58,302 bases of DNA. It comes from an uncultured virus (IMG/VR IMGVR_UViG_3300021387_000062) (Duplodnaviria > Heunggongvirae > Uroviricota > Caudoviricetes). The notes beneath the pieces were generated by a model that had not been told where the DNA came from, ran no database searches, and saw only the letters and a list, made by a program, of their open reading frames with translations. Both the position numbers and the translations under genes were made by a program. The stretch is taken from IMG/VR virus record IMGVR_UViG_3300021387_000062; one strand, 5' to 3'. Shown piece by piece: positions 8,022-32,347 of the stretch (positions are counted from its first letter, which is position 1; each line of letters opens with the position of its first letter).

Positions 8022-8096
8022 TGGCAGGGGCGCTGAGAATCGAACTCAGACCTACGATTTTAGAGACCGTAGTGCTTACCTTTACACAACACCCCA
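8022..8096 (-). tRNA. amber suppressor tRNA, anticodon CUA (Gln-like body)
   Basis: Cloverleaf TGGGGTG...ACGGT-CTCTAAA-ATCGT...CTGAG-TTCGATT-CTCAG-CGCCCCT-G-CCA; G73, unpaired 1:72. Confidence 0.93.
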
Positions 8097-11655: not shown

Positions 11656-13194
11656 TTACTTAATGCAAGCATATCGCTCACTATTAAGCTTATCCATCAT
11701 CAGATCATATCCAGTTTTACCTTTCATGATCATCTCAAAGATAACCGGACTGAATCCACTCACAAGAGTAACTCCATCCTTTACTGTCATTGGAACATTA
11801 TCATGACGAGCATTAACATTCCAATACACAAGGTGAGGCATCTCATATCCATGAGCTTCCCACTTATCTCTAATGTTTTCCATCAGAGTATTATCTCTGC
11901 GGCCATAATACCCGCGCTGACTATCAAACTCCATATCAGAGATGATAACAAGAGACTTAGGAAGATCAGCCTGAGAGCAACGATTTTTAATTGCTGTATT
12001 AAGCAGCATATCAAAAGTCGCTTCAATATTGGTGTTTTCGCAAAGATTTGTCTGATAGATTCTCCAAACCTTATCAACAAAATCCACACCAACTGTCTCA
12101 ATCAACTGAGGATGAGAGCTAAAGCTCACATAGTGACCAGCAAAAGGACCACGTGCACGCTCTGCGGCATACAGACCAAGAGAAATTGCTACATTAATGG
12201 GCGCGCTCGCTTCGGTTCCCCACATAGAACCAGAAGTATCCACAACGCAAAGAGCATCGAGAGAACATCCATTAAAGTAATCCTTCAGATTGTCCCAATA
12301 CTTGTTAATCGCGGCCCGCTCAGTAGAATCTACCCCAGTAAGTTCTGAAATATTCGTACGATTCCAGCCCCACCCGCGGTGAACATTACGAGTAAGATTA
12401 TAAGCCTTTGCTACCACTTCGTAAGGATAAAGATCCTTGGCGTTAACCGTAGTCTTTTCATCCTTTACGAAATTCTCATAAGATACCACGTTCTTCTCGC
12501 TCTTCATGCGCTCAATATCATGCCGCGCGAACGCATTACGATAGATAAAACCAGCCTTAGAAGGAATCTTATCAAACTCGATCTCATCCCACTTGCCGGC
12601 GCTCATAAGACACTCAACTACATTGATGCGCGCCCGCAGAGCAGACAACATCTTACGATACTGGCGATGATTCAGGCCAAAAGCAGCACGAGTTTTATTG
12701 GCGAGCATACGAGACTCTTCACTAGAAGTATTCTCAGACTTCAGCCACTTTGCCAGCAGAGAAGGAGTCTTACAAGTAATGTCGAGCTTCATCTGCTCTT
12801 CCATCATCTTGAAAGCATCTCGCTCAAGCTTGGTGCCGACGAACACATACAAATCGTCCCAGCGCCCAAACTCAGGCACATACTGAAGATTGCGCCGCAT
12901 TGCTTCAGTTTCATGCGCGGCCAGCCACTTGGTCACAACGCGGAAGAATCTGCGCTCACCCTGCCCGCCACGAATATCACGCAGATAAAACAGACACTTC
13001 AGCGCATAAGTAGGATCTTCGGCAAATGCCTTCTGAAACAACACAATGCAGTCATTGTCACTACGAGAGCGATAAGCCGCGCCAAGTCCAAACAGATCGA
13101 GCAGTCCAGACATTGAAGACTTATGTGTCAGCGCGCCATTTTCAGTATAGGTATAATTAGTTGCAGACTTCATTCCATTAAGAAAATTATTCAT
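11656..13194 (-). CDS. DUF2828-family protein (TROVE/Ro60-like helical domain + vWA)
   Basis: TENGA, YLRDIRGGQGERRFF, EFGRWDDL, LLAKWL; vWA MIDAS DTSGSM and ISDMEFD. Confidence 0.85.
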   Translation of the reverse strand: MNNFLNGMKSATNYTYTENGALTHKSSMSGLLDLFGLGAAYRSRSDNDCIVLFQKAFAEDPTYALKCLFYLRDIRGGQGERRFFRVVTKWLAAHETEAMRRNLQYVPEFGRWDDLYVFVGTKLERDAFKMMEEQMKLDITCKTPSLLAKWLKSENTSSEESRMLANKTRAAFGLNHRQYRKMLSALRARINVVECLMSAGKWDEIEFDKIPSKAGFIYRNAFARHDIERMKSEKNVVSYENFVKDEKTTVNAKDLYPYEVVAKAYNLTRNVHRGWGWNRTNISELTGVDSTERAAINKYWDNLKDYFNGCSLDALCVVDTSGSMWGTEASAPINVAISLGLYAAERARGPFAGHYVSFSSHPQLIETVGVDFVDKVWRIYQTNLCENTNIEATFDMLLNTAIKNRCSQADLPKSLVIISDMEFDSQRGYYGRRDNTLMENIRDKWEAHGYEMPHLVYWNVNARHDNVPMTVKDGVTLVSGFSPVIFEMIMKGKTGYDLMMDKLNSERYACIK

Positions 13195-14080: not shown

Positions 14081-14086
14081 ATAAAA

Positions 14087-14158: not shown

Positions 14159-14205
14159 CAACTTTCTATATATATTATACTATAAATTTACAAAAAAATC
14201 AAATT

Positions 14206-14472: not shown

Positions 14473-14479
14473 ATTCTCC

Positions 14480-14818: not shown

Positions 14819-14819
14819 T

Positions 14820-15134: not shown

Positions 15135-15295
15135 AATAACTCCTAATATTAAAGCTGGCTTATGCACCATGATCTGTGGCATCGGAACCAGTACCATTAC
15201 ATTTGTGCAGGCACAAACTTTTCTGGAAAGGCTAATCCTTTTACGCATAATTTAACTAGTAATAATTATAGTTAATTATTTATTCCTCACTTACT

Positions 15296-15369
15296 TGGAG
15301 CGCCAAGAGGTAATCGAAACCTCACCAACAGATTGGAAGTCTGTGATACTACCTTTATACTACTGGCGC
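15296..15369 (-). tRNA. tRNA-Gly(UCC)
   Basis: Loop CTTCCAA, U73, CCA. Confidence 0.92.
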
Positions 15370-15535
15370 ATATTTATTATACTCTGGTTAAGAGTGCCAG
15401 ATTTCTACTGCTCTACCCCAATCCACATAGGGCGTGCTTACATACAGTCAGACTTTCGCGCGATAATCCTCAATACTGATATACTGGTAAAGATTCGCGA
15501 CTTCTTTTTTCATATATCATTTACACTAACTCTTA

Positions 15536-15611
15536 TGGCACGACCGTTAGGACTCGAACCTAAATCTAATAGTTTTGGAGACTATTGTGTTACCAATTAC
15601 ACCACGTCCGC
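15536..15611 (-). tRNA. tRNA-Trp(CCA)
   Basis: Loop CTCCAAA, G73, CCA. Confidence 0.92.
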
Positions 15612-15614
15612 ATA

Positions 15615-15698
15615 TGGAGCCGGAAGTGAGATTCGAACTCACGAAGCTTGCGCGACGGCTTACAAAACCGTTCCAATTGGCCACTATGGGATTCCGGC
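15615..15698 (-). tRNA. tRNA with Thr anticodon (UGU) and enlarged variable arm
   Basis: ACGGT-TTTGTAA-GCCGT; 12-nt variable region CGCGCAAGCTTC. Confidence 0.85.
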
Positions 15699-15707
15699 TT
15701 ATTTAAA

Positions 15708-15795
15708 TGGCGCCGCCGCGAGGATTCGAACCCCGATAGACTTTCACCTACTCATGGCTTTCAAGGCCAGGCCCTTACCATTAGGGTACGACGGC
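15708..15795 (-). tRNA. tRNA-Ser(UGA)
   Basis: Loop CTTGAAA, long V arm, G73. Confidence 0.9.
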
Positions 15796-15800
15796 AAATA

Positions 15801-15870
15801 AAAGAGTTCCGTGCTTACCATTACACTAATTCAACCGGTATTACTGGTACTGACCCAGTCTTGAACTCTG
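15801..15870 (-). ncRNA. minimal permuted tRNA-like RNA
   Basis: AGAGTTC/GAACTCT closing stem, ACTGG-7nt-CCAGT arm, then D-arm TAGTGTAATGGTAAGCAC. Confidence 0.5.
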
Positions 15871-15962
15871 TGGCGCCCGCGGTGTGTGCCGACCACACTC
15901 AAGCATTACTGCTCCTAACTCCTTAGCAGAGAGTCCCCTTTGCCAACATTGGGTACACGGGC
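15871..15962 (-). tRNA. tRNA-Ser(GCU), atypical T-loop
   Basis: Loop CTGCTAA, long V arm, T-loop GTCGGCA. Confidence 0.88.
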
Positions 15963-16048
15963 ATAAAGTGAGGACTATTATCTTGCCCGTCCTCTTGTTG
16001 GGTGAGTAGACTTTGGCAGCCGAACCGCCCGGTTATCTACAGCCTCGC

Positions 16049-16201
16049 TGGTGCGCCATCGCGGATTTGAACCGCGGACACCCGCATTAATGGTGCCGAA
16101 CGTGAGATTCGAACTCACAATCTTAGCTTTTTGAGAGCTATCCGTCTACCAATTGCAGCACTTCGGCAAGTGCGGTGCTCTGCCTACTGAGCTAATGGCG
16201 C
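16049..16201 (-). tRNA. split tRNA-Lys(UUU): 5' part 16168-16201 (34 nt), 3' part 16049-16090 (42 nt)
   Basis: Joined halves give a fully paired 76-nt cloverleaf with CCGCA-CTT|TTAA-TGCGG. Confidence 0.9.
16091..16167 (-). tRNA. tRNA-Leu(CAA) with short variable loop, nested inside tRNA-Lys
   Basis: GCCGAAG...TAGCT-CTCAAAA-AGCTA...GTGAG-TTCGAAT-CTCAC-GTTCGGC-A-CCA. Confidence 0.9.
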
Positions 16202-16396
16202 TTATTCAACTCTTTTATCAATCAAGCTCTTAAAACATGTGCCACAAATTTCATAAGTACCTTGATATTTCAGTAAATCATAAACATTTGTCGCTGGATT
16301 AGTAGAATCTATTTTAACAGTAATACTAAACCATACGCCAACTTCTTTTCCACATAAATCGCATCTATGAATCGTCATTTTACTCTCCTTTTATTT

Positions 16397-16483
16397 TGGT
16401 GCACGAGAAGGGTCACGATCCCTCAATCCTTTACAGGCGACAGATTTTAAGTCTGTTGCGTATACCAGTTCCGCCACTCGTGC
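16397..16483 (-). tRNA. tRNA-Leu(UAA)
   Basis: Loop CTTAAAA, long V arm, T-loop ATCGTGA. Confidence 0.9.
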
Positions 16484-16490
16484 ATATTAA

Positions 16491-16618
16491 CAAGACGTAA
16501 TAAGATTTATTCACAGTTTATCAGACTGTTGCCTTACCGTTTGGCTAAATTGGAACACTCCAATTATGGGAATCGAACCCATATCCTTCTTAAAGAAGAG
16601 TTTGCTGTATACGTCTTT
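16491..16618 (-). ncRNA. ACAGCAA-family ncRNA C containing a circularly permuted cloverleaf (GAU loop)
   Basis: AAGACGTA/TACGTCTT stem; T arm, AATTGGA/TCCAATT hairpin, D arm, ACAGT-CTGATAA-ACTGT. Confidence 0.75.
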
Positions 16619-16619
16619 A

Positions 16620-16705
16620 TGGTAGCTCGGGTTGGACTCGCACCAACGATGTTTCTATGTTACGCGTTTACAGCGCGCTGCCCTCGCTACTAGGCATACC
16701 GAGCT
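16620..16705 (-). tRNA. tRNA-Tyr(GUA)
   Basis: Loop CTGTAAA, long V arm, CCA. Confidence 0.9.
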
Positions 16706-16712
16706 ATATAAA

Positions 16713-16797
16713 CAAGACACTAAATCCAGTACAAGCTATTCATGGCGCTTATCGAGGGAATTGAACCCGCGTAAAAGATTGCTGTTAGAGTGTCTTT
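16713..16797 (-). ncRNA. ACAGCAA-family ncRNA D
   Basis: AAGACACT-CTAACAGCAA...GGGTTCAATTCCC...AGTGTCTT. Confidence 0.65.
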
Positions 16798-16921
16798 ATT
16801 TTTATTTAAAATATAGGCTAGGTTTATCACACCATTTACTACAGCTCCTGCTCCTCTACACCTGAGTACTTTAATGTACAATCGGGCTTCGTAGCACCTA
16901 TTTTTATTCTTTTAATCAATA

Positions 16922-17015
16922 CGAGATACAGAAAATTTAAAGGACTTGAACCTTTTCGATAACGTTTTAGCAGAACATTTCTTTAACCATTTTATATTTT
17001 GCTGTATGTATCTCT
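16922..17015 (-). ncRNA. ACAGCAA-family ncRNA E (D-like, anticodon-like GCU and T arms; family stem replaces the acceptor stem)
   Basis: GAGATACA/TGTATCTC stem; AATGTT-CTGCTAA-AACGTT; AAAGG-TTCAAGT-CCTTT. Confidence 0.7.
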
Positions 17016-17016
17016 A

Positions 17017-17092
17017 TGGTGGACCTAGGGAGGTTCGAACTCCCAACTTCCTGCGTGCAAAGCAGACTGTCTCCCAATTGGCATATAGGCCC
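17017..17092 (-). tRNA. tRNA-Ala(UGC)
   Basis: Loop TTTGCAC, G3:U70, CCA. Confidence 0.92.
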
Positions 17093-17289
17093 AAACGTCT
17101 AGCAGTTTTTATATACATAAAATCTGCCAATCTATCAAACAGTTTGTCGTAACTCCGTTGGTACTGTTAAACCTGTCCCACAGCGTTCGTCCCTGACGAA
17201 ACCTTATGTAGCCATATAGACCGCATAAGTCTAGCCCATTAGAAGCTCATACGTCATATCCTGTTAATCAGGCTTTACGTGGGGTTGAA

Positions 17290-17366
17290 TGGCGACTACG
17301 GCGGGCATTGCTCCCGCGACCTCCTGAGTGACAGTCAGGTATTCTTCGTTGCTGAACTACGTAGCC
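17290..17366 (-). tRNA. tRNA-Asp(GUC), atypical T-loop
   Basis: Loop CTGTCAC, T-loop AGCAATG, G73. Confidence 0.88.
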
Positions 17367-17763
17367 ATATGAATCCAGGGTATTTAAACCCGCCCTGGTT
17401 TCGGTATTAAAACATTGTTGAGGTATTAGATCAGGATTACTCCAACGGCCGCCCCAACTACACGACCTCGACTGTTTCTACACTTGGCAGATCAGATAAA
17501 AATGAAGGATAGAACACTACTCCTATTTCTATAACTGTCCTTCTCAGCTATAATAAGTTATTTAGAAGCGATTACTTATACCCCGCTGGCTTTTTCGATG
17601 GGCCATAACGATTGCTTTCACAGTCGTGAACTGCCTTTCAATTTATAGTTCAGCGCAATCATCATTCTGAACTCGGTTCCCCATTTCGGTTTTGCTCCCG
17701 CCTAAGCCAAGACACTTTTAGCGTTCTTGTTGCATAATAGTTTCACCATCCCACTATTAAGGC

Positions 17764-17841
17764 TGGCGGCCCAAGAAGGACTCGAACCTTCGCTGACATA
17801 GATTAACAGTCTATCGTTCTAACCAACTGGACTATTGGGCC
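17764..17841 (-). tRNA. tRNA-Asn(GUU)
   Basis: Loop CTGTTAA, G73, CCA. Confidence 0.92.
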
Positions 17842-17847
17842 AAAACA

Positions 17848-18005
17848 CAAGACAGCTAATTCCTTTTGATTACCTAGCTTTCGCCTTAGTGGTGGCTTAC
17901 AAATTAGAATCACTATAAAATAAGCGTTTTCTCATGGCAGTGGATTATTATTCCACTCTTGTTATATTTTCATTCAAGAAAATATTTTGCAGTTCAGCTG
18001 TCTTT
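17848..18005 (-). ncRNA. ACAGCAA-family ncRNA F (variant ACTGCAA)
   Basis: AAGACAGCT/AGCTGTCTT terminal stem just after a promoter. Confidence 0.6.
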
Positions 18006-18065
18006 CTTAACTTTATGTATATATTATATCATTAAATTACACTTTTTTCAAGTTTTTAATCTTAA

Positions 18066-18216
18066 TGGTACTCTAGGTTGGATTCGAACCAACGATCACC
18101 GGATTATTGGCCGAGATAGAGAGTACCGCCCTCTCTTTCAGTGATACTAGACCACCTGCGAAACTATCCGCACCTATCCCGAAGTCCGGCGCTCAAACCA
18201 ACTGAGCTGCTAGAGT
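18066..18216 (-). tRNA. split tRNA-Ile(UAU): 5' part 18182-18216, 3' part 18066-18107 (42 nt)
   Basis: Joined halves: ACTCTAG...CCGGA-CTT|ATAA-TCCGG...GTTGG-TTCGAAT-CCAAC-CTAGAGT-A-CCA. Confidence 0.88.
18108..18181 (-). tRNA. degenerate tRNA-like unit nested inside tRNA-Ile
   Basis: 7-bp acceptor CGGGATA/TATCTCG + G + CCA; D arm TGCG/CGCA; T arm GAGAG-7nt-CTCTC; non-canonical loops. Confidence 0.8.
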
Positions 18217-18223
18217 ATATAAA

Positions 18224-19095
18224 TGGCGGGCATGCAGTCATGATTCAGTCTGCACCAAGCAATCATTCAATCACGCGCATCTTATCGGGGTCGCACAGAT
18301 GTTATTGTACATCTACTCGCGCTTCATAACGTAGACGTTCGGGAGTTCTCTCTCCTCGTGTCCCCTTCCTAAGCATTATTTTCTTCACGGCTTTTTATAC
18401 TTGCCTACAGCCATTTTACATTGGATTCTTCTCATTTCAACTTGGACCTGTGAGAACTTTAGAGATCGGCCAGGGCCAACTCCCCTACTGTTAAACAAAC
18501 CACCTATCCTTTATGGACACTTAATAGAGTGTTGTTGCTTCTATTAAGCCGCTTACGCTTGTTTTACTATACATAATCCAGTTTACTCGATCAAGCCATA
18601 TTTCCCCTATTAGGCGGATTTATTTTTGGCTCATCCCATAAGTCTTTATCATGACCTCAACCTATGGCGACTGACGAAGGGACAGGCTACCACTGCCCGA
18701 GCTGGATTTTTTCTTTCTAATTTAAAGTGAAACTATATAATAGAATCTTTACTTATATTCCTCTTTAATCCCTCGGAAAGGTCAATTTCATCCGCACGAG
18801 AGGTTCGTTTAATGCGTTCGTACATCGATCATTTCTATTATATACCCTAATTCCTCCGCAGAGAAGACCTGGGCGCAAGTCTCGCTAGCTAACTTGGAGG
18901 TTTTACCATCTTTATCGTAGATTATACCTGCCTTGAACGATACGAACATAGCTCATCTTTAGTTTTCACTTTGAAACTACTGAGGTATATGCTATACCAT
19001 TTGAAAAGTCAACTCTATGTTTTGATACCGAGAACCATTAGCGTTTCGACTCGGAGAAAAAAGAGAGATACTTAATGCATCTTTTCTCTCTCACT
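18224..19095 (-). ncRNA. large (about 870 nt) putative structured ncRNA, GOLLD/ROOL-class candidate
   Basis: No long ORF, many hairpins, starts at a strong promoter, ends beside the tRNA cluster; family not confirmed. Confidence 0.5.
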
Positions 19096-19141
19096 TTCTA
19101 TATATATTATACTATAAAATTATGTGAAAATCAAATTTTTT

Positions 19142-19345
19142 TTATTTAAATGTCTCTTTTAAGTCGTCTTCATTCATACAGACTATAGTTTCGTAAAGTT
19201 CAATTCCAATAACACTATCAGAACCATATAAATTTACTATACAATCCGCGGCCCAACCGTAAGAAAGCGCCGCAACTATACCAGAATCAGTTACTGGTTT
19301 GTCCAAATCATTATCAAAATAATTAATTGTGTACTTAAACAACAT
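19142..19345 (-). CDS. hypothetical protein
   Basis: ORF in operon (start uncertain). Confidence 0.5.
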   Translation of the reverse strand: MLFKYTINYFDNDLDKPVTDSGIVAALSYGWAADCIVNLYGSDSVIGIELYETIVCMNEDDLKETFK

Positions 19346-19355
19346 CGGTGCTTTT

Positions 19356-19745
19356 TCAGTAGCTATCATAAAAAATTACCTCCGCATCTGGATGTAGTTT
19401 CATCCAAATTCTAAGCCAGAAAAGGTTTCGCTTCTGTTCTTTAAGGGATGATTTGATCTCGTCAAAATCCCAAATTGAGTCATCCCAATCTTTGGGGTTC
19501 TCCAAATAGTGAATAATAATACGCCAAAGATAAGTAATCTCTTTCATTCCACATTTAAATTCCCACTTATCCGCTGGCCTATTAGGAAAAGCAGTCCGCA
19601 AAAACCAGTTACGGAGTCCCCAGCACTTCCGCCAATAGCATACTTCTACACCATCATTATAATCCTTCTCAAAAGGATATTTGATGAACCGCGGCAAGTC
19701 TTTACGTTTTACACCGCGCACAATCACACCATTGTCCAGGCCCAA
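19356..19745 (-). CDS. hypothetical phage protein
   Basis: MGLD...EVCYWRK...FYDSY pattern; RBS GGAGG. Confidence 0.7.
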   Translation of the reverse strand: MGLDNGVIVRGVKRKDLPRFIKYPFEKDYNDGVEVCYWRKCWGLRNWFLRTAFPNRPADKWEFKCGMKEITYLWRIIIHYLENPKDWDDSIWDFDEIKSSLKEQKRNLFWLRIWMKLHPDAEVIFYDSY

Positions 19746-19748
19746 TTA

Positions 19749-20114
19749 TTACACCTCCTCTGGTTTTCTACCGGCCGACCGCGCTTGTTCATTTGGATTC
19801 GGCTTTTCATCCCATACCTTCCAATACTCAGTAATACATTTATTCATCCATTCACCGAGATGCCAATCAAGATCATAGTTATTAAAATTCTTAATCTCTG
19901 TCGCGCCCGTCTTGGTATCAGTAAATTCCAACCAAACACTAAATTCTGCACCACTCTTATCTTCAAAGGGCCAAAAATATGCCGCATACTGACGAAGTAC
20001 AAACCGGCCATCCCAAAGCCAATCATTCTTGACAAACTGGTTCCATTTTCTTACAACTCTATTTACTTCTCTTTGATACTTCTTACGACTTATAACACTA
20101 TTCTTATCTCGCAG
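19749..20114 (-). CDS. hypothetical protein
   Basis: ORF in operon. Confidence 0.6.
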   Translation of the reverse strand: MRDKNSVISRKKYQREVNRVVRKWNQFVKNDWLWDGRFVLRQYAAYFWPFEDKSGAEFSVWLEFTDTKTGATEIKNFNNYDLDWHLGEWMNKCITEYWKVWDEKPNPNEQARSAGRKPEEV

Positions 20115-20129
20115 CATTAATTTCACCCC

Positions 20130-20606
20130 TCACATCATCTGATACTTCAGAAATATATTGACCAGTCGCTCTACTTCTGAAATATTGTTGTTAATAAAAT
20201 TTACTGCCCATACATTAGCCGCAAATTCATCCGGCATTTCCCAATACTTAAACATTTCTTCCATGGTTGTATCTTCATCAGAGAAAATCCAAAACTTATT
20301 ATAATACATTGCCAGACGTTCAGAGTTACTAAAACTATAAACAGTATTATAATGCCCCAGCTCATGAATAAAAGGAAGAACTCGCCCCAGATCCATCCAT
20401 TCAAGTCCATATTCATACAGAAATTGCTCAAACCACTTATCAATTTCATCAAAACGATCTACACCAATATTAATTACACATTCATCGACATAATTAAAAT
20501 CAATATCTTCACCAGTTGAATAATAAAAATCACTATTCAATTCAACATCAAGACTTGAAAATCCATTGTCACACAGCCACTATACAACTTCAGACTTAAA
20601 GGACAT
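20130..20606 (-). CDS. HEXXH-containing protein (upstream TAG read through)
   Basis: IHELGH...DEFAANVWA; RBS AAGGAG before ATG near 20606. Confidence 0.55.
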
Positions 20607-20662
20607 TTGATTTTCTCCTTTCTCATTTTCTATATATATTATACTATAAAATTAAAAGAAAA

Positions 20663-21205
20663 TCAAATATTAAGTTTCTTTCGTATATCACTTTCAATCT
20701 GATCTATACTTACAGGATATCCATTATGTGCATCTACTTCAATATGATAAATAAGCCCATTATCCCAATGAAGGAATGGATCTTTAGTATGCGAATGGCC
20801 GCAAAGACTTATGACCTTATGACGGTCTTGATAATTTTCTGTAATCTGTGGATAATGTGAAAGTAGATACGTCCAACCATTATAATGTAGGCGGCCGCCG
20901 TAATCAACAGATACAAAGATACCACTATCTTGGTATTTTTGTATGCGTGAAATACTATCATGATTGCCAACAATAATATATTTAAATCCATTGAGTCGCC
21001 GCAGACATTTCAGTCCAAATTCATCATTATTCAGCATACAATCACCAAGAATATAGACTGTATCTTCCCATGTTACAACACTATTAAATTTCTGAATTAG
21101 ATCTTCTGCTTCTTCGTATATATTGCTATATCCACGTGGGCCATAAATAAACTCACGATCATGTCCAAATTGTTAGTGAAAATCTGAAGTAAACCAGATT
21201 CCCAT
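20663..21205 (-). CDS. calcineurin-like metallophosphoesterase with in-frame TAA at codon 11
   Basis: TSDFH*QFGH...LGD...GNHD...SHYP...GHSH. Confidence 0.7.
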
Positions 21206-21211
21206 TATACA

Positions 21212-22141
21212 TCACCTCTTTTTAGGCATAGTAATTGCCTATATTATATCCATACCGTTTTCAATACGTTTATATACTGACTATCTACTAATATTAAAAT
21301 AACGGCACCATTCTGTTACTGTTTTTCGTTCACCATTAATTAATGGATGAGTTTTATTATATGTCTATTTTAGTTCATCTATATCATAATTATTATTAAT
21401 AATATTACCTTGAAAATCTATTTCACGCCAAATATACCCGTTAACATTAGTATAACGACTATCACCTTTAATACATTTTCCAATTGATTGTCGCGAAATA
21501 TTTAATAAATTACTTGCTTCTAAAATAGAATTAAAATATATTTCTTCTTTTTCATCATCTAAGGGAATACCAACTATATATTTAGAACTTTTATATCTTT
21601 TAAACGGTTTAGAAATAATACAATTATTTTCATCAATATCACGAAAATACATATCATTACACGAAGATCTAAATCCTTTACATACCCCTCTTATATCACT
21701 AGCACGCCCGTCAAGATTATTTTTTCGTGCAGCATCATTATATGACGTATATATTTCAATAATATTTTCATTTAAATCAACTTTCGCACACTTTTGTGAT
21801 ATTTTTTCTAATACCATTGCTTTTAATTTTTCATCTAGTAAAGAACAATGAGTATTAAGTGTTTGATTATATCCATTATTTAAAGAATCATATTGAATAA
21901 TCATCTATTTTTCATATTCTTCCATATCATATGCATTATTAAATAATGAAGATAATATTTCAAATTTAAAATTATCAATACCATATTTTCTAAAAGCACG
22001 CTATAATGGATAATTATAACTTGGCGCATTCGGATTCTAAGCAGCATTAATATGCTCTTCCCATCTTTTAATGTAACGAATACTAGAACCAATATATGCT
22101 TTATTATTTATCTAATTAGTAATTTTATATACAACAAACAT
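21212..22141 (-). CDS. GIY-YIG homing endonuclease with NUMOD-like repeats (TAG = Gln)
   Basis: MFVVYKITN*INNKAYIGSS...GYNQT; FNSILEAS...GYIWR. Confidence 0.85.
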
Positions 22142-22230
22142 AAATATCCCTCCTATCGTTATTAATAAGTGGTAAATTTATATCTGATGTACATTTTTTT
22201 AATTAAAATGAAAATCAGATGTAAAATATA

Positions 22231-22737
22231 TCATGAATTATCCACCTTCATAATTGCTGTATATTTATACGGATCACGATAAGGATCACTTAAAGCTTTA
22301 AACATCTTCCTAAGTGCATCTTCTGGTACACAAGCGCGCCCGCTACGTTCTTCGTTACGTGCTACTATAGTTTCATAATCACTGTATACCACAACTGGAA
22401 TAATATTAATTTCCTCTTCTTTCCAACGAAAGCCCATATAATACTTAATAGCATTAAGAAGTTTCTTCCGAGAACCCCAACTCAAATGAGTTGCATCCGC
22501 GACAATATTATATACTCCTTCTTCATAAAAACCGCGTACAATTTTACTAATAAACAAATCAAATACTTCATCTTCTCTACTAAAATAATCGTCTTCATCT
22601 TTTAAGAGAGAAAAACGTACTTCATCTCGTGAAACATAATACCACCCCGGCCCATTACATAATTTATGTTTTGCAAACCAAGTTTTCCCCGAGCCGGGTG
22701 CTCCACACATAATCCAAAGAGTTTTGTTATCCATCAA
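22231..22737 (-). CDS. P-loop polynucleotide-kinase-like (AAA_33) protein
   Basis: GAPGSGKT, SRDEVR, DATH, RNEER. Confidence 0.8.
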   Translation of the reverse strand: MMDNKTLWIMCGAPGSGKTWFAKHKLCNGPGWYYVSRDEVRFSLLKDEDDYFSREDEVFDLFISKIVRGFYEEGVYNIVADATHLSWGSRKKLLNAIKYYMGFRWKEEEINIIPVVVYSDYETIVARNEERSGRACVPEDALRKMFKALSDPYRDPYKYTAIMKVDNS

Positions 22738-22909
22738 ATCTTAAATCCTTTCCTTGACATTCAAAACAAGCTTCACTATATGCAACATCACAATAACCAC
22801 ATTCAAAAGGGCAAAATGGCTCTTTTTCTTCATTAGGAATTGATTTAAGCCATTTATTAAATTCTTCATATGTCATAACTTCTATCAATAATCCTTTCAA
22901 GTTCTCCCT

Positions 22910-23230
22910 TCAATCAACGCATGAAAGTACATAATTGTGAGGCATATAAGACTTTTGATTAGGAAAGAAAGATTTATATTCATCAATCATCTTCATCAAC
23001 TCTCCATGAGGATAAGGCGTCACAGGTCGTACCATGAAATATTCACTAGGATCTGCGTGCCAAATTATAAGACCAAAGAAATAAGTAGAGTTATCAGGGT
23101 CCCACCCATCAATCGCAAACGCATAATCAGATTCCTGAAACCGTTTGAATTTCTCTTCTGGAAATTCACGATATTCCTGACGCTGAACAATGAAGCCATA
23201 ACCCAACCTGGAACTATAATGAACAGACAT
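22910..23230 (-). CDS. hypothetical protein
   Basis: ORF behind promoter and RBS. Confidence 0.6.
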   Translation of the reverse strand: MSVHYSSRLGYGFIVQRQEYREFPEEKFKRFQESDYAFAIDGWDPDNSTYFFGLIIWHADPSEYFMVRPVTPYPHGELMKMIDEYKSFFPNQKSYMPHNYVLSCVD

Positions 23231-23370
23231 CAATTAATACTCCCTTTCTTTATTTTCTATATATATTATAATATAAAAATAGAGAAAAGTCAAATTACTT
23301 TTCTCTATCCTTATATACAATTGCCATTAAAACTATTCCGATCCAAAAGCAATCACAGAATATCTAATAA

Positions 23371-24624
23371 TTACCCATGATATTTCAGCAGAAAGCTATT
23401 GCTAACAGCTTTGAAAGATCGAGTTCCATCAACGCTTCTCAGCACAAGGCCTTCACGAGGCAGATCATCAATCATCGACTTGCCTTCTGCAAGAGTAAGA
23501 ATCTTATCCAGACGAGTCTCTCCATTCAGCTGATCAAGCTGATTAAAAGAGAATGAAGATTCAACTACTGGTACGCAAGGAACATTAAATCCATTTTCCA
23601 GAAGATTCTTCATCGCATTACTATTCCATCTGCCTTTATCAGAAGTAATAAGATTAAATGCGGCAAAGTCATGCCCAGTAAGACTATAATCTCTTTTCTG
23701 CACACCAGCGCCATAAGTTTCCCCTTGAATAGTAACCCAATTAGCGTTAGGCATCCGTTCAAGAAGCTCATTCAACACTTTAAACATGTCATACTTCTGC
23801 GCCATTTCCCAATAAATATTGGTGTCATAGTAACAAGGTTTATCAACGCTATCAAAGCATACATTACGAGAGCATACATAAAACTCATTTTTACGGCGGC
23901 CGCGCTTCATAGTGAAAGTGGTAGAACTACCATCAATTTTTTCAGTGATAATCCATTCCCCTTCATCTTCCAGAATCCAAGGCATATTCTGAACACGCTC
24001 TTCATCGGTCTTTACGACCCACTCAGGCCAGCCATTCTTTTTGTCTTTCTTCTTGCCGAAGAATACAAACATGAGTTTACGGCCCCACTCGCGCTTCATC
24101 AGCCAGCGCGCCCAAGACTTCTTAAAGATATTAGGATGCCGCTGAGCCATTTTCTTATACTTATCCACAGAAGGAGCCTTGCGCTGATTATCCTCTGCGT
24201 CTGCATAGGTTACACCAAGCTCTTTGGTAAGAAAACGAGACTCACCATTAGCATAATGACACTCTCCCTTATTGTCCTTAATATAAGGAATATTTCCAGA
24301 AGAATCATTAGTATCATATCCAATACTCCATCCGAAATCTTCTGCGTGCATAAGAAGACCCTGAGAAATTACCTTACACATACGAAGTGTTTTTACCTTA
24401 TAGTTTCGCTTTGCAAGAAACGCAAAACATTCCTTATCATACGAAACCTGGGAGTCAATCTCAAAATAAATCGCAGGATCGCCAACGTTAAACTGGCCCT
24501 TCTGAACAATCACCCACCAGCCACCAACACGGGCATGCTCAACACGATCATAATTAGGAATAGGACGAATTTCATCAATAGTCACTACATAACAGAGTTC
24601 CCTCTGATTTTCCTTATTAAGCAT
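23371..24624 (-). CDS. ATP-dependent RNA ligase (DRB0094/Rnl-like)
   Basis: KTDEERVQN, EKIDGSS (motif I), QGETYG, EGLV, FKAVS. Confidence 0.88.
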   Translation of the reverse strand: MLNKENQRELCYVVTIDEIRPIPNYDRVEHARVGGWWVIVQKGQFNVGDPAIYFEIDSQVSYDKECFAFLAKRNYKVKTLRMCKVISQGLLMHAEDFGWSIGYDTNDSSGNIPYIKDNKGECHYANGESRFLTKELGVTYADAEDNQRKAPSVDKYKKMAQRHPNIFKKSWARWLMKREWGRKLMFVFFGKKKDKKNGWPEWVVKTDEERVQNMPWILEDEGEWIITEKIDGSSTTFTMKRGRRKNEFYVCSRNVCFDSVDKPCYYDTNIYWEMAQKYDMFKVLNELLERMPNANWVTIQGETYGAGVQKRDYSLTGHDFAAFNLITSDKGRWNSNAMKNLLENGFNVPCVPVVESSFSFNQLDQLNGETRLDKILTLAEGKSMIDDLPREGLVLRSVDGTRSFKAVSNSFLLKYHG

Positions 24625-24673: not shown

Positions 24674-25444
24674 TTATTTATCAAATTTTTCAATGGACTT
24701 CCACATCACTTGCATTACAATTTGTTCTACTTTATACTGCGTCCATTTATCTTCTTTATTATTCATAGAGATAAAACTATCATTATGATTACGACATTTT
24801 TGAATACAATTATATGCAATCATTTCTAAAGTTTCTTTTGAAAATTCATTATTTTTAATTGCAAGTAAAAAATCTCGGTTATCTGTAACAAGGCATTCTT
24901 CAAAACTTTTATCTTTACGATATTTATCCATGCATTCTTCAATGCGCGCAAGTTGATAAACCCATTTACTAAAATGGTTTTCTTCGCTACGATTTACAGT
25001 AAGTTTATAATTGCGATCAGCCATACCAAGGAGCGCACGCATCGTATTATTAGGATTACAACGTGCAATATCTTCGCGCATACGCATTAGAATATGGATT
25101 TCTTCTCCATAATATCCAGTATTTAAATCTCCCCAATTAGAAAAAAGAGTTTCAAGAAACTGAGGATTTCCTTTAACAAGACTTTTCATATAATTACGAA
25201 TATCACAGCAATCAATATGCTCCTCATTAGGGAGAAGATGAGTATATGCTTCACATTTATTTTCAACAATATTGCGAAGAGTAGGGATAAAAATGGCTTT
25301 AGTATCTATATCACTATATTCATCAGCACAATTATAATTCCAACTACCAACTGGTACAAGCATAAATTGCTGAAAAGGTTGAAATGTCATATTATAAAAA
25401 AGATAATGTTCTCTAATATTTGGATACATTTTATTTACTGACAT
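24674..25444 (-). CDS. Pol-beta-like nucleotidyltransferase
   Basis: GSWNY...SDIDTK; GNPQFLETL. Confidence 0.75.
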   Translation of the reverse strand: MSVNKMYPNIREHYLFYNMTFQPFQQFMLVPVGSWNYNCADEYSDIDTKAIFIPTLRNIVENKCEAYTHLLPNEEHIDCCDIRNYMKSLVKGNPQFLETLFSNWGDLNTGYYGEEIHILMRMREDIARCNPNNTMRALLGMADRNYKLTVNRSEENHFSKWVYQLARIEECMDKYRKDKSFEECLVTDNRDFLLAIKNNEFSKETLEMIAYNCIQKCRNHNDSFISMNNKEDKWTQYKVEQIVMQVMWKSIEKFDK

Positions 25445-25997
25445 TTCTTTTCTCCTTTCTTTCTGTTGCTTTATCAATCGTAGAACGGTGCAATGGTATA
25501 ACCTCTTTGAGCCGGCCGCTCTTTATAAACTGATTAAAGTTTACAGGCATATAATGAATTACATCACTACATACACAAAGATGGCCAGAGCGATCAAAGG
25601 TACTTATATGAGTGTGCCCATGAATATTAAAAGCCCAACTAATAGCTAGCGGTTCATGAGACAAAATAATACGTTCTCCAATCATGAGCGGGCCGCCATA
25701 TACTTCTTCAAATACGTCTTCATAATTAGAAAGACCGCTATCATGATTTCCTTTAATAAGAATCTTATGTCCTCTAAGTCTTCGCGCGCACTCAATATCT
25801 CCAACATCTCCAAGAAGAATTAGATGATCCTTGCGGCCGACCTTAGAGTTAATTAGTTTGATTTGTTCTTCGGCAGAAGGGCGGTTTGGAAATGGCACAC
25901 GAAGATCTTTATCTTCATTAAAATGGGTGTCACTGTAAAGCCAAACCGTACCCTCTCTATGCCAATGTTCAAAACATTTATAAAGTCCTTCAATCAT
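25431..25997 (-). CDS. calcineurin-like metallophosphoesterase
   Basis: SDTHF, LGDVG, GNHD, SHEP, HGHTH. Confidence 0.85.
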   Translation of the reverse strand: MIEGLYKCFEHWHREGTVWLYSDTHFNEDKDLRVPFPNRPSAEEQIKLINSKVGRKDHLILLGDVGDIECARRLRGHKILIKGNHDSGLSNYEDVFEEVYGGPLMIGERIILSHEPLAISWAFNIHGHTHISTFDRSGHLCVCSDVIHYMPVNFNQFIKSGRLKEVIPLHRSTIDKATERKEKRNVSK

Positions 25998-29358: not shown

Positions 29359-29670
29359 TTAGATTTCCCTCCATCCATTATGTTTAATAATACGACACAT
29401 ATTTTCAATTCCAACTGAATTTTGACTATGAATATGAAAGAAATACCCAGTATCAACAATGCCTTCACGCTCAAGCCAATTCAGAATCTCAATATGGTCG
29501 CCACCGTCTTTAGCGTAATCACCAGCATCATGATCGAGATCAATTATAATAGTATCATCTCGCATATTACTTTCATAAGTACGAATTGCTGATTTAGCTC
29601 CATTAACAGTCCGACACCAGAGCCAACTCGTATCGGGCGGCCGACGTGTGTCATCAATCCAGAGCTTCAT
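29359..29670 (-). CDS. cyclic-phosphate-processing receiver-domain-like protein
   Basis: MKLWIDDTRRPP...DLDHD...IHSQNSVG. Confidence 0.7.
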   Translation of the reverse strand: MKLWIDDTRRPPDTSWLWCRTVNGAKSAIRTYESNMRDDTIIIDLDHDAGDYAKDGGDHIEILNWLEREGIVDTGYFFHIHSQNSVGIENMCRIIKHNGWREI

Positions 29671-29892
29671 TTTTATTCTCCCTTCTCTCATTTTCTGTAT
29701 ATATTATAACATAAAAATCTAAAAAAGTCAAAATAAAAAGAAGAACTATACCCTTCAATAGTTCTTCTTCTGAATGGTGCATAGTACAACCTATGCTTAC
29801 AGAGTTCTTCCCTGGAGTTCCCATGCTTTTTAACCGTTCGATACATGGTGGTGGACCTCGGAGTTCAGAAGCCATCATTAATTACTTAAAAA

Positions 29893-31879: not shown

Positions 31880-32347
31880 TTACTTTACGCCGTTCAAAAA
31901 AGAAATTGCTTCATTCACGTCTTCATCAGTGAGACCAATACCACCATTTATTTGAATAAGATGATCTCTATATATACTCATATCATACCAATCATCTAGA
32001 ATTACAAAAGACTCTATATCTAAATCTTTATGTAATTCAAACCATTCATTAATAGCAGCACCACGACTCGGCCGCATAGGCATTGGAAGAGCATCCCAAA
32101 TTTCCATACCATATTCTTTAAGTTTATCTCTAAGTTGGTTAAAGAATGGTTCATTCTTAGACTCGTCTTCTCTATTCCAACCATCCCGCCATGTAGAACT
32201 TAATACGATCTTGGCGCCCGTGGCATCAATTATTCGTTTCAGACGTTCAACTAGATAATCATCAACAAAGCACCATCCATCAAATGTTATGGTACGTGTC
32301 AAATTATTATTTAGTACACCGTCAACGTCAAGAAATAGTAACTTCAT
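31880..32347 (-). CDS. HAD phosphatase (RNA-repair-associated type)
   Basis: FLDVDGVLN, LSSTWR, VILDD. Confidence 0.8.
   Translation of the reverse strand: MKLLFLDVDGVLNNNLTRTITFDGWCFVDDYLVERLKRIIDATGAKIVLSSTWRDGWNREDESKNEPFFNQLRDKLKEYGMEIWDALPMPMRPSRGAAINEWFELHKDLDIESFVILDDWYDMSIYRDHLIQINGGIGLTDEDVNEAISFLNGVK

What the first reader, a model, noticed from the sequence alone, without database searches (positions are those of the whole stretch)
16049..24624. Proposed mechanism: host tRNA end-processing plus the phage RNA ligase splice the nested tRNAs
Known: RNase P leaves a 3'-OH on the upstream piece; endonucleolytic 3' processing (RNase Z/E/Y type) leaves a 5'-phosphate on the downstream piece; ATP-dependent RNA ligases join 3'-OH to 5'-P. 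Seen: such a ligase is encoded at 23371-24624, 5-7 kb from both split tRNAs. Inference: Lys(UUU) and Ile(UAU) mature only when the ligase is present, giving a timing switch for AAA/AUA-rich genes or ligation-ready halves to restore tRNAs cut by anticodon nucleases (PrrC targets tRNA-Lys UUU). Weak point: a precise endonucleolytic cut right after an encoded CCA is needed, whereas many bacteria trim these ends exonucleolytically.
Basis: inference. Interest (0 to 1): 0.85.

Follow-up and report, generated by a model that had tools for sequence, protein, structure and literature searches.

The report
tRNA-shaped inserts splitting phage tRNAs
Two transfer-RNA genes of this rumen phage are each cut in the anticodon loop by a small tRNA-shaped insert, and the phage's single RNA-joining enzyme is the best candidate for re-sealing them, though no experiment or RNA data shows this yet.

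Summary
tRNA-Lys(UUU) (16049-16201, minus strand) and tRNA-Ile(UAU) (18066-18216) are each interrupted between nucleotides 34 and 35. The inserts are 77 and 74 nt, run exactly from a tRNA-like +1 to an encoded CCA, and show no group I core. Uninterrupted orthologues fix both junctions.

The Ile arrangement recurs in 13 of 20 metagenomic orthologues. All outer and inner helices stay paired (297 of 297 cells), and 15 of 33 pairs changed on both sides. In a complete, TAG-recoded relative the only amber-suppressor tRNA gene carries such an insert, so these genes must be matured.

The ligase (23371-24624) is a real, motif-intact Rnl5/DRB0094-type enzyme. It is the only RNA ligase detected in four complete relatives.

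Limits:
- The ligase sits in a well-described phage RNA-repair gene set.
- The family occurs in 331 cultured phages below 30% identity, which I did not scan for nested tRNAs.
- It is core to this clade whether or not tRNAs are nested.
- No RNA evidence of joining was obtained.

tRNA-within-tRNA "enigmatic introns" were already printed for Lak megaphages, and this scan met them before on other DNA.

The parts
16168..16201 (-). 5' exon of tRNA-Lys(UUU), positions 1-34, ending CUU
   Evidence: ARAGORN -i; letters; identical but for one D-loop base to uninterrupted Lys genes L113, L115, L147
16091..16167 (-). 77-nt insert: class-I-shaped tRNA with anticodon CAA, 7-bp acceptor, discriminator A, encoded CCA
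   Evidence: ARAGORN; Rfam tRNA 47.9 bits; exactly the 77 nt skipped by a DNA contig of an uninterrupted Lys gene; no other copy in the loci held
16049..16090 (-). 3' exon of tRNA-Lys(UUU), starting UUAA, ending ACCA
   Evidence: T stem differs from L082 and L083 by a paired G:C to A:U change
18182..18216 (-). 5' exon of tRNA-Ile(UAU), ending CUU
   Evidence: Rfam tRNA hit 18069-18216; ARAGORN -i; parsed
18108..18181 (-). 74-nt tRNA-like insert: 7-bp acceptor CGGGATA/TATCTCG, 5-bp T stem with odd loop GGCGGTA, discriminator G, CCA
   Evidence: nearly identical insert inside a different outer allele in L092 and L105; not called a tRNA by Rfam or ARAGORN on its own
18066..18107 (-). 3' exon of tRNA-Ile(UAU), starting AUAA, ending ACCA
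   Evidence: joined exons 96% identical to uninterrupted L107
23371..24624 (-). Rnl5 / DRB0094-type ATP-dependent RNA ligase, 417 aa, no in-frame TAG; K229 in KIDGSS at 23923-23940
   Evidence: Pfam PF09414 + PF21189; PDB 5cot 1.5e-34 with motif alignment; phrog_968 RNA ligase 6.2e-62; motif positions
24674..25477 (-). RlaP-family nucleotidyltransferase next to the ligase
   Evidence: PF10127 7e-05, 23.1 bits, just over cut-off; phrog_388
25431..25997 (-). metallophosphoesterase (candidate 3'-end healing enzyme)
   Evidence: Metallophos_2 2.4e-05, below Pfam cut-off; phrog_547 phosphoesterase 2.9e-25
22231..22737 (-). P-loop polynucleotide-kinase-like protein
   Evidence: AAA_33 2.2e-14; phrog_505 polynucleotide kinase 2.6e-18
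29359..29691 (-). cREC cyclic-phosphate-processing receiver domain protein (RNA-repair set)
   Evidence: PF20274 3.6e-17
31880..32347 (-). HAD phosphatase of the 'Swiss Army Knife' RNA-repair type
   Evidence: PF18143 1e-26
11656..13194 (-). Ro-like (DUF2828/DUF7788) RNA-binding protein
   Evidence: PF25043 1e-39, PF11443 2.9e-30; phrog_850 RNA-binding protein 1.2e-134
8022..8096 (-). uninterrupted amber-suppressor tRNA(CUA) of this phage; its orthologue in relative G003 carries a tRNA-like insert
   Evidence: ARAGORN; exon alignment to G003 117825-117974

Best explanation
The two inserts belong to a class of ribozyme-free, tRNA-mimicking introns in phage tRNA genes. Each precursor folds as two cloverleaf-like bodies.

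Proposed steps (all inferred):
1. Host RNase P cuts at the insert's +1, leaving a 3'-OH on outer nucleotide 34.
2. A host 3' endonuclease of the RNase Z type cuts right after the insert's CCA, or after the discriminator where no CCA is encoded. This leaves a 5'-phosphate on outer nucleotide 35.
3. The phage's only RNA ligase, an Rnl5/DRB0094-type ATP-dependent enzyme, seals the nick and restores a 7-nt anticodon loop.

Shown here:
- the anatomy and the exact insert boundaries;
- selection on both the outer and the inner helices;
- the need for maturation, from a relative whose sole amber suppressor is nested;
- the identity and uniqueness of the ligase.

The ligase also, and perhaps mainly, serves ordinary tRNA repair together with its kinase, phosphoesterase and RlaP neighbours.
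For: Boundaries:
- The Lys insert equals an independently called tRNA, 16091-16167.
- Removing +1..CCA restores the loops seen in uninterrupted orthologues: Lys CTTTTAA in 5 of 5 and Ile CTTATAA in 9 of 9.

Ile family (window plus 13 interrupted metagenome loci, 14 genes; the 13 are out of 20 true orthologues among 24 pattern hits, 4 of them unrelated):
- Outer acceptor 7/7 paired in 13 of 14; anticodon and T stems 5/5 in 14 of 14.
- Insert with 7-bp acceptor in 13 of 14, 5/7/5 T arm in 14 of 14, CCA in 12 of 14.

Covariation on 9 distinct 34/35-type genes:
- 297 of 297 cells paired.
- 15 of 33 pairs changed on both sides; 0 of 500 shuffles reach this, and slid controls give 1-2.
- Outer acceptor 4/7, outer anticodon stem 2/5, insert acceptor 5/7, insert T stem 3/5.

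Intron-like evolution: exons are 92% identical on average, inserts 66%. L088 and L098 have identical exons and 59%-identical inserts.

Complete relative G003 (124,253 bp, terminal repeats):
- Coding cover rises from 0.68 to 0.92 when TAG is read as sense; one ORF holds 76 TAGs.
- Its only CUA-anticodon gene is interrupted at 35/36 by a 75-nt CCA-ended tRNA-like insert.
- No other CUA anticodon arm or tRNA was found.

No ribozyme:
- No group I signal in the window's array at E<=1. Rfam does find group I introns in relatives' tRNAs at 40-46 bits, below its gathering score of 50 (E 1e-8 to 4e-7).

Ligase:
- Motifs intact.
- Exactly one PF09414 gene in 5 of 5 relatives; RtcB in 0 of 5, with the control ringing in 10 of 14 genomes.

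Literature:
- Cutting after an encoded CCA has precedent (PMC7479834, abstract and passages).
- The DRB0094 ligase is 140-fold enriched in phages with ribozyme-processed tRNAs (PMC10879173, passages).
Against: - No RNA data. Only contigs could be laid, and none of the three RNA-library runs covers a splice junction of either nested gene.
- The ligase is core to the clade. 123 related contigs encode it, including those whose Lys and Ile genes are uninterrupted. The family also occurs in 331 cultured phages, which I did not scan for nested tRNAs. Its presence therefore needs no nested tRNAs.
- It sits in a standard repair set.
- Characterised Rnl5 enzymes seal nicks in duplexes (recalled, not from a call). 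An anticodon-loop nick is not a duplex.
- Bacillus-type RNase Z is inhibited 1520-fold by CCA under Mg2+ (PMC7479834 abstract).
- L091's insert ends CTT, not CCA, in an otherwise intact gene.
- A second class of ~465-490-nt inserts carrying a PD-(D/E)XK endonuclease gene mostly lacks a T arm and CCA. RNase P and Z cannot explain those, which hints at another endonuclease.
- The window's Lys exons are identical to uninterrupted orthologues but for one D-loop base. That insertion is recent and could be a dead gene.
- The Rnl1 search had no working control.
Confidence: 0.45

Rival explanations
1. The ligase is only what its neighbours suggest: the sealing enzyme of a phage tRNA-repair set against host anticodon nucleases. 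The window's nested genes are not its substrates. They are recent casualties of a mobile tRNA-like element, or are matured in some way that needs no phage ligase.
For: - The repair set is complete: ligase, RlaP, two kinases, several phosphoesterases, cREC, HAD-SAK, Ro-like protein and a Y-RNA-like RNA. Such sets are described for jumbo phages (PMC7824862, passages).
- The ligase is present in relatives with uninterrupted Lys and Ile genes and in 331 cultured phages.
- The window's Lys exons equal uninterrupted orthologues, so that insertion is young.
- L104 looks decayed.
- In G005 the nested Asn is redundant with a plain Asn gene.
Against: - The nested Ile form is the majority form (13 of 20 orthologues) and keeps every helix through compensatory change.
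- G003's only amber suppressor is nested, although its structural genes are full of TAG.
- Re-joining needs some ligase, and the phages carry only this one.
Confidence: 0.25
2. The inserts are removed by a dedicated, still unrecognised endonuclease, phage or host. It leaves 2',3'-cyclic phosphate and 5'-OH ends. The phage kinase and phosphoesterases heal these ends and the same ligase seals them, as in the yeast and plant tRNA splicing pathway.
For: - The healing enzymes are encoded beside the ligase.
- One cutter would cover both the tRNA-like inserts and the PD-(D/E)XK-ORF inserts. In 5 of the 6 ORF inserts read, the last 3 nt are complementary to the anticodon: ACA for UGU, GAT for GUC, AAA for UUU, GTA for UAC. 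The sixth, in L044 Asp, instead has tRNA-like ends GTAAGAA...TTCTTAC-A-CCA, which links the two classes (read by eye).
- L091's CTT tail does not fit CCA-guided cutting.
Against: - No splicing-endonuclease family was found among the 58 window proteins scanned against Pfam (13, 45; one of the 45 is a locus protein). PHROGs on 25 window proteins added none.
- No bulge-helix-bulge fits the junctions (by eye).
- What the inserts conserve is exactly what RNase P and Z read: acceptor stem, T arm, NCCA.
Confidence: 0.15
3. The nested genes are not precursors of decoding tRNAs. They act as made, as double-cloverleaf tRNA mimics or decoys, or serve only as a scaffold to express and process the inner RNA.
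For: - The array holds other tRNA mimics: a YrlA-like hit at 13882-13993 and capped-acceptor units, beside a Ro-like protein.
- An earlier scan report read nested cloverleafs in another phage this way (e1-5706722; part of it later fell).
- The inner helices are under selection.
Against: - Exons are 96-100% identical to working-looking uninterrupted orthologues and restore perfect 7-nt loops.
- G003 would have no amber suppressor.
- The inserts evolve or swap far faster than the exons, which is the opposite of what a scaffold for the inner RNA predicts.
Confidence: 0.1

Closest known systems
'Enigmatic' tRNA introns of Lak megaphages (Devoto et al. 2019, PMC6784885; passages read)
   Same: Phage tRNA genes with inserts in the anticodon loop. 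One, in tRNA-Thr(UGU), 'itself may encode a tRNA'. Presence or absence varies between related genomes. The phages are TAG-recoded gut phages.
   Different: A different phage group: ~540-kb Prevotella phages, against the 100-240-kb rumen clade here. No mechanism, covariation or ligase link is offered in the passages I read. I did not check Lak genomes for the ligase.
Phage T4 tRNA repair: PrrC cuts tRNA-Lys, Pnkp heals, Rnl1 seals (recalled; general scheme in PMC7824862)
   Same: A phage ATP-dependent RNA ligase with kinase and phosphatase partners restores a broken anticodon loop. tRNA-Lys(UUU) is the classic substrate.
   Different: There the break is inflicted by a host nuclease at 33/34 and needs end healing. 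Here the break would come from removing an encoded insert at 34/35, with ends that need no healing. The ligase is Rnl5-type, not Rnl1.
Group I introns in bacterial and phage tRNA anticodon loops (for example tRNA-Leu(UAA) at 34/35; the I-Ssp6803I endonuclease family)
   Same: Same sites in the loop (34/35, 36/37), the same presence/absence polymorphism and the same homing-endonuclease family (PDDEXK_5, 2.6e-30). Relatives carry true group I introns in Leu(UAA) and suppressor tRNAs.
   Different: The 74-77-nt inserts have no room for a catalytic core and give no Rfam group I signal, so they cannot self-splice.
Enzymatic tRNA splicing of archaea and eukaryotes (EndA/Sen endonuclease plus RtcB or Trl1 ligase)
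   Same: A protein-dependent cut-and-ligate logic for tRNA anticodon-loop introns.
   Different: No bulge-helix-bulge, no EndA homologue, and a non-canonical position. The proposed cutters are the general tRNA end-processing enzymes, and the ends would be 3'-OH and 5'-P.
Theta (HDV-like) ribozymes next to gut-phage tRNAs, with enrichment of the DRB0094 RNA ligase (Kienbeck et al. 2024, PMC10879173; abstract and passages)
   Same: Recoded gut phages with unorthodox tRNA end processing, and the same ligase family statistically tied to it.
   Different: There a ribozyme trims the 3' end of a contiguous tRNA. No theta ribozyme was recognised here, and nothing there is re-joined.

Membership tests
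Rnl5 / DRB0094 (NgrRnl, DraRnl) ATP-dependent RNA ligases | N-terminal OB domain followed by a nucleotidyltransferase domain | tested here: met
   PF21189 residues 13-92 and PF09414 residues 223-407; both stretches align to NgrRnl 5cot
Rnl5 / DRB0094 (NgrRnl, DraRnl) ATP-dependent RNA ligases | Motif I lysine (KxDG) and motifs IV and V | tested here: met
   KIDGSS (K229) aligned with KLDGSS; EGLVLR and FKAVSN aligned with EGLVFK and FKAISN
Rnl5 / DRB0094 (NgrRnl, DraRnl) ATP-dependent RNA ligases | Seals 3'-OH/5'-PO4 RNA ends with ATP | not testable with these tools
   Needs enzyme assays
Phage/bacterial RNA-repair gene sets (ligase with RlaP, kinase, phosphoesterases, cREC, HAD-SAK, Ro/TROVE plus tRNA-like RNA) | Ligase adjacent to RlaP, with kinase and phosphoesterase nearby | tested here: met
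   RlaP 24674-25477, Metallophos_2 25431-25997, AAA_33 22231-22737; set described in PMC7824862
Phage/bacterial RNA-repair gene sets (ligase with RlaP, kinase, phosphoesterases, cREC, HAD-SAK, Ro/TROVE plus tRNA-like RNA) | Accessory cREC, HAD-SAK, Ro-like protein and Y-RNA-like partner | tested here: met
   PF20274, PF18143, PF25043/PF11443; YrlA 35.4 bits, E 4.7e-05, below the gathering score of 69
Group I tRNA introns | Catalytic core detectable; length roughly 200 nt or more | tested here: not met
   Inserts are 77 and 74 nt. No Intron_gpI hit at E<=1 in 13500-19200, while the same search finds group I in relatives' tRNAs at 40-46 bits, below the gathering score of 50
Archaeal/eukaryal endonuclease-spliced tRNA introns | Bulge-helix-bulge at the junctions, position 37/38, EndA-type endonuclease present | tested here: not met
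   Position is 34/35. The junction is a 3-nt by 8-nt internal loop between two helices (by eye). No tRNA_int_endo hit among the 58 window proteins scanned
tRNA-in-tRNA inserts of phages (Lak-type) | tRNA-shaped insert inside the anticodon loop of a phage tRNA, polymorphic among relatives | tested here: met
   description in PMC6784885
Canonical tRNA (for the inserts themselves) | Scores as tRNA; arm geometry fits its anticodon's class | tested here: inconclusive
   The Lys insert scores 47.9 bits, but a CAA (Leu) anticodon on a body without the long variable arm is atypical. The Ile insert is not called by ARAGORN or Rfam and has T loop GGCGGTA
RNase P / RNase Z substrates (for the inserts) | 7-bp acceptor stacked on a T arm, discriminator plus CCA, U at -1 | tested here: met
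   13 of 14 Ile-family inserts have a 7-bp acceptor, 14 of 14 a T arm, 12 of 14 CCA; -1 is U34 in the 34/35 type. Covariation. Actual cleavage is not testable here

The most novel reading that the evidence does not exclude
Rumen and gut phages have a third kind of tRNA intron, neither self-splicing nor endonuclease-spliced. It is a tRNA or minihelix mimic that borrows the host's own tRNA end-processing enzymes (RNase P and RNase Z) for excision and relies on the phage's Rnl5/DRB0094 ligase for exon joining. Some copies carry a PD-(D/E)XK homing endonuclease, which would explain their spread between tRNA genes. Where the insert sits in the only amber-suppressor gene, as in relative G003, ligase-dependent splicing would gate the switch to the TAG-recoded late genes.
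Probability: 0.35. Interest if true: 0.9.

Novelty: new variant of a known kind. Interest (0 to 1): 0.72.

Why it matters
Bacterial and phage tRNA introns are taught as self-splicing group I RNAs. Protein-dependent tRNA splicing is held to belong to archaea and eukaryotes.

If these tRNA-shaped inserts are cut out by RNase P and Z and the exons are sealed by a phage ligase, three things follow:
- It would be a new splicing route built from housekeeping enzymes.
- It would give the widespread but functionally obscure Rnl5/DRB0094 ligases a natural substrate.
- It would explain the "enigmatic introns" of Lak megaphages.

It could also be a control point for stop-codon recoding, because one complete relative has its sole amber suppressor in this form. 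The question is directly testable with a cloned gene, a ligase mutant and an amber reporter.

Tried and rejected
Public reads:
- Only contigs were available.
- Of the three RNA-library runs laid, X15 has no cover at either nested gene; X17 and X18 show only fragments, some from relatives. None covers a splice junction, so nothing can be said about splicing.

Co-occurrence test:
- All nested examples in viral contigs came from loci fetched through the ligase, so the sample is biased.
- Nested Ile contigs found independently are 1-9 kb, or are not held for whole-record search. In one search, 4 of 5 handles were not held.
- The one record searched (64% complete, uninterrupted Ile) had no ligase match, which shows nothing.

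Other dead ends:
- Whole genome of the window: none held.
- Close cultured relatives: none; one 61-nt tRNA match only.
- 'Permuted tRNA' reading of the units at about 16495-16617, 16715-16800 and 16912-17013: dropped in favour of Y-RNA-like tRNA mimics after the YrlA hit.
- Theta/HDV-like ribozyme in the 82 nt after the Lys gene: no Rfam hit, and no fit by eye.
- Origin by mis-ligation plus reverse transcription: RVT_1 in 0 of 5 relatives, so it would need a host enzyme. Kept only as a weak idea.
- T4 Rnl1-type ligase: 0 of 5, but the control rang nowhere, so this is uninformative.
- Host from the Lys tRNA: the one genome hit is a phage-like contig binned in a Clostridiales MAG. This is a hint only.
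- Other copies of the inserts: none in the loci held.
- Orthologues of G003's nested suppressor: the pattern scan found only G003 itself.

Literature searches for a printed mechanism found none. Devoto 2019 reports the observation only. I did not read its supplementary tables.

Full report
**What is there**

The window is part of a phage of roughly 36% G+C. Coding cover rises from 0.68 to 0.87 when TAG is read as sense, and the phage carries an amber-suppressor tRNA at 8022-8096.

A tRNA array lies on the minus strand between 13.8 and 18.2 kb. Two of its genes are interrupted.

With introns allowed, ARAGORN finds an outer tRNA at 16049-16201 with a 77-nt insert and another at 18066-18216 with a 74-nt insert. 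Rfam spans the second as one tRNA, 18069-18216, at 50.8 bits.

- The Lys insert (16091-16167) is itself called a tRNA with anticodon CAA. It scores 47.9 bits but lacks the long arm of a normal tRNA-Leu.
- The Ile insert (18108-18181) is tRNA-like only. It has a 7-bp acceptor, a 5-bp T stem with the odd loop GGCGGTA, discriminator G and CCA.
- Both inserts sit between outer nucleotides 34 and 35. Removing them from +1 to CCA leaves CUU|UUAA (Lys UUU) and CUU|AUAA (Ile UAU).
- ARAGORN's own labels (Thr, Arg) rest on another junction choice.

**The junctions are fixed by orthologues**

Next to the same 58-aa zinc-ribbon ORF, relatives L083 and L084 have an uninterrupted tRNA-Lys with loop CTTTTAA. 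So do L115, L113 and L147.

A DNA contig in run X1, at depth about 1325 against about 40 for the phage, joins 16090 to 16168. It skips exactly the 77 nt with no positional ambiguity. Its flanks match L113.

All 9 uninterrupted Ile orthologues read CTTATAA. The inserted DNA is thus one tRNA-shaped unit and nothing more.

The window's Lys exons are identical to L113, L115 and L147 apart from one D-loop base. That insertion is therefore young.

**The nested state is common and under selection**

A metagenome pattern scan for the Ile D arm gave 24 loci:
- 4 are unrelated.
- 7 are uninterrupted.
- 13 are interrupted. L102 is the same record as viral locus L029. L105 repeats L092, and L110 repeats L109.

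With the window that makes 14 interrupted genes.
- Outer acceptor 7/7 paired in 13 of 14; outer anticodon and T stems 5/5 in all 14.
- Insert with a 7-bp acceptor in 13 of 14, a 5/7/5 T arm in 14 of 14, and CCA in 12 of 14. L091 ends CTT.
- L104 looks decayed: 6/7 acceptor pairs, outer tail CTA and a 6-nt loop.

I aligned 9 distinct genes of the 34/35 type. I left out L102 and L106 (36/37 type), L104 (decayed), and the duplicates L105 and L110. On these 9 genes:
- 297 of 297 cells pair.
- 15 of 33 pairs changed on both sides. None of 500 shuffles reaches this, and slid controls give 1-2.
- The changes lie in the outer acceptor (4 of 7), outer anticodon stem (2 of 5), outer T stem (1 of 5), insert acceptor (5 of 7) and insert T stem (3 of 5).

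Exons are 92% identical on average and inserts 66%. L088 and L098 have identical exons but inserts only 59% alike. The inserts therefore drift or are swapped like introns, while the exons are held like a working tRNA.

Other relatives carry the same kind of insert:
- Thr(UGU) in L066, 117 nt, ending TCCA, at 34/35.
- Leu(UAA) in L001 and L044, a 49-nt minihelix ending ACCA, at 32/33.
- Asn(GUU) in L021, 68 nt, no CCA, ending at the discriminator.

**They must be matured**

Relative G003 is a complete 124,253-bp genome with terminal repeats.
- Its coding cover rises from 0.68 to 0.92 with TAG as sense. One ORF holds 76 TAGs and another 31.
- ARAGORN finds 22 plain tRNAs, none with anticodon CUA.
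- Rfam finds 21 tRNAs, none outside ARAGORN's list.
- A direct scan finds no other CUA anticodon arm in a tRNA context: 5 stem-loops, none in a cloverleaf.
- The only candidate is the gene at 117825-117974. Its exons align to the window's uninterrupted suppressor, with the gap exactly at CTCT|AAA. Its 75-nt insert runs GGGGTTA...AAACCCC-G-CCA.

A phage that writes TAG throughout its structural genes needs that tRNA. The insert must therefore come out precisely at +1..CCA, which yields CUA, whereas ARAGORN's junction would yield CUG. This step is inference, but a strong one.

Further points:
- G003's nested Ile(UAU) is its only tRNA labelled Ile, though a CAU tRNA could be an Ile2.
- G004's nested Thr is its only UGU.
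- G005's nested Asn is redundant with a plain Asn gene.

**Not self-splicing**

Rfam at E<=1 finds no group I signal in 13500-19200. The same search detects group I introns in relatives' Leu and suppressor tRNAs at 40-46 bits, below its gathering score of 50 (E 1e-8 to 4e-7). The inserts are too short for a catalytic core.

**The ligase**

The ORF at 23371-24624 is an Rnl5/DRB0094-type ligase. It has an OB domain plus a nucleotidyltransferase domain and matches 5cot at 1.5e-34. K229 of KIDGSS and motifs IV and V are aligned. It has no in-frame TAG.

It stands in a full RNA-repair set:
- RlaP;
- two P-loop kinases;
- three or more phosphoesterases;
- cREC and HAD-SAK;
- a Ro-like protein;
- a YrlA-like RNA.

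This kind of set has been described for jumbo phages (PMC7824862, passages). An RlaP preprint reports addition of 1-2 nucleotides to damaged RNA 3' ends (abstract only).

Distribution:
- 123 related viral contigs encode the ligase.
- 331 cultured phages encode distant members below 30% identity. I did not scan these for nested tRNAs.
- In five relatives, four of them complete, there is exactly one PF09414 gene each. None has RtcB, with the control ringing in 10 of 14 genomes. None has an Rnl1 match, but that control rang nowhere.

**Weighing the mechanism**

RNase P and RNase Z or E leave 3'-OH and 5'-P ends, the substrate of an ATP-dependent ligase and not of RtcB.

In favour:
- What the inserts conserve (acceptor stem, T arm, NCCA, U at -1) is what those enzymes read.
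- RNase Z needs only the acceptor stem and can cut just after an encoded CCA in several organisms (PMC7479834, abstract and passages).
- The same ligase family is 140-fold enriched in phages whose tRNAs are trimmed by theta ribozymes (PMC10879173, passages).

Against:
- No RNA evidence was obtained.
- The ligase is core to the clade whether or not tRNAs are nested.
- Characterised Rnl5 enzymes prefer duplex nicks (recalled, not from a call).
- Bacillus RNase Z is strongly inhibited by CCA.
- L091's insert ends CTT, not CCA.
- A second insert class cannot be RNase P/Z substrates (described next).

The second class consists of ~465-490-nt inserts that carry a PD-(D/E)XK endonuclease gene of the I-Ssp6803I family (2.6e-30). 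They lie mostly at 36/37. In five of the six read, the last three nucleotides are complementary to the anticodon (read by eye). One of them, in L044 Asp, does have a 7-bp stem plus ACCA at its ends, which links the two classes.

The timing-switch idea fits codon use. AAA is 56.6 against 38.6 per 1000 codons, and ATA 27.4 against 14.7, in TAG-bearing against TAG-free genes. This remains a correlation.

**What is known already**

Devoto et al. 2019 printed that Lak megaphage tRNAs have "enigmatic introns", one of which "itself may encode a tRNA" (PMC6784885, passages). This scan has also reported tRNA-like genes nested in phage tRNAs on other DNA (e1-5779119).

My searches found no printed mechanism. 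The RNase P/Z-plus-ligase model is new, coherent and testable, but unproven.

**Verdict**

- Observation confirmed.
- Interpretation partly supported.
- Confidence 0.45 that the inserts are excised by tRNA end-processing enzymes and the exons are sealed by this ligase.

Noticed in passing
L081 2489-3034; L001 17737-18300; L007 288-829; L029 17115-17663; L044 18034-18583 and about 16380-16930: A second class of tRNA insert in relatives: ~465-490 nt, almost entirely an I-Ssp6803I-family PD-(D/E)XK endonuclease ORF, with no group I core. Most lie at 36/37. In 5 of the 6 read, the last 3 nt are complementary to the anticodon of the tRNA they sit in (ACA/UGU, GAT/GUC, AAA/UUU, GTA/UAC). The sixth (L044 Asp) instead has tRNA-like ends, GTAAGAA...TTCTTAC-A-CCA. 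The same Lys gene that holds a tRNA in the window holds this ORF element in L081.
   Followed up: partly
G003 (record of L029) 117825-117974: The only amber-suppressor tRNA(CUA) gene of a complete, heavily TAG-recoded relative is interrupted at 35/36 by a 75-nt CCA-ended tRNA-like insert. In G006 the suppressor instead carries a small group I intron (40.7 bits, below the Rfam gathering score).
   Followed up: yes
window 13882-13993; about 16495-16617, 16715-16800, 16912-17013 (minus strand): Y-RNA-like tRNA mimics. One is a YrlA hit below the gathering score (35.4 bits, E 4.7e-05). Three further units have an 8-bp closing stem followed by GT, a shared ACAGCAA motif, and a T arm joined to a loop-capped acceptor stem. 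A Ro-like protein is encoded at 11656-13194.
   Followed up: partly
window 17367-17763 and 16646-16997: Long tRNA-flanked spacers with no ORF and no Rfam family. Exact or near-exact contigs of 17395-17732 appear in RNA-library runs of three studies, and 16646-16997 in one. These are possibly stable non-coding RNAs. DNA carry-over is not excluded.
   Followed up: no
window, whole: Stop-codon recoding. Coding cover is 0.68 under code 11 and 0.87 with TAG as sense. TAG-rich ORFs include 35250-37061 (16 TAGs), 42696-43688 (10), 53543-56182 (10) and the GIY-YIG endonuclease genes. The RNA-repair genes have none.
   Followed up: partly
window 37104-38994: The PhoH-like gene is split by a group I intron (Rfam 38481-38698, 66.7 bits) that carries a LAGLIDADG endonuclease ORF (37662-38486).
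   Followed up: no
window 20663-22737: A polynucleotide-kinase-like gene (22231-22737) and the C-terminal part of a phosphoesterase (20663-21037, phrog_547 positions 91-202 of 245) are separated by a TAG-rich GIY-YIG endonuclease gene (21212-22141). This may be a healing enzyme split by a mobile element.
   Followed up: no
window 15966-16047: An 82-nt structured element directly after the CCA of the Lys gene. It is present in L083, and replaced by about 10 nt in L082 and in an RNA-library contig of run X17. It was not recognised as an HDV-like or any other Rfam family.
   Followed up: partly
window 58163-58227; L021 1882-2465; L142 12917-13492 and 16091-16443; L029 1918-2029: Other known phage-associated RNAs in the clade: a DUF3800-VIII RNA in the window; ROOL RNA, a phage tmRNA and drum RNA in relatives, all beside tRNA arrays.
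   Followed up: no
L147 (Clostridiales MAG UBA4362 contig, 13.6 kb): A contig binned in a Clostridiales genome carries the same Leu(UAA)-spacer-Lys arrangement as phage locus L115. It looks like a related phage contig, so it is only a weak host hint.
   Followed up: no
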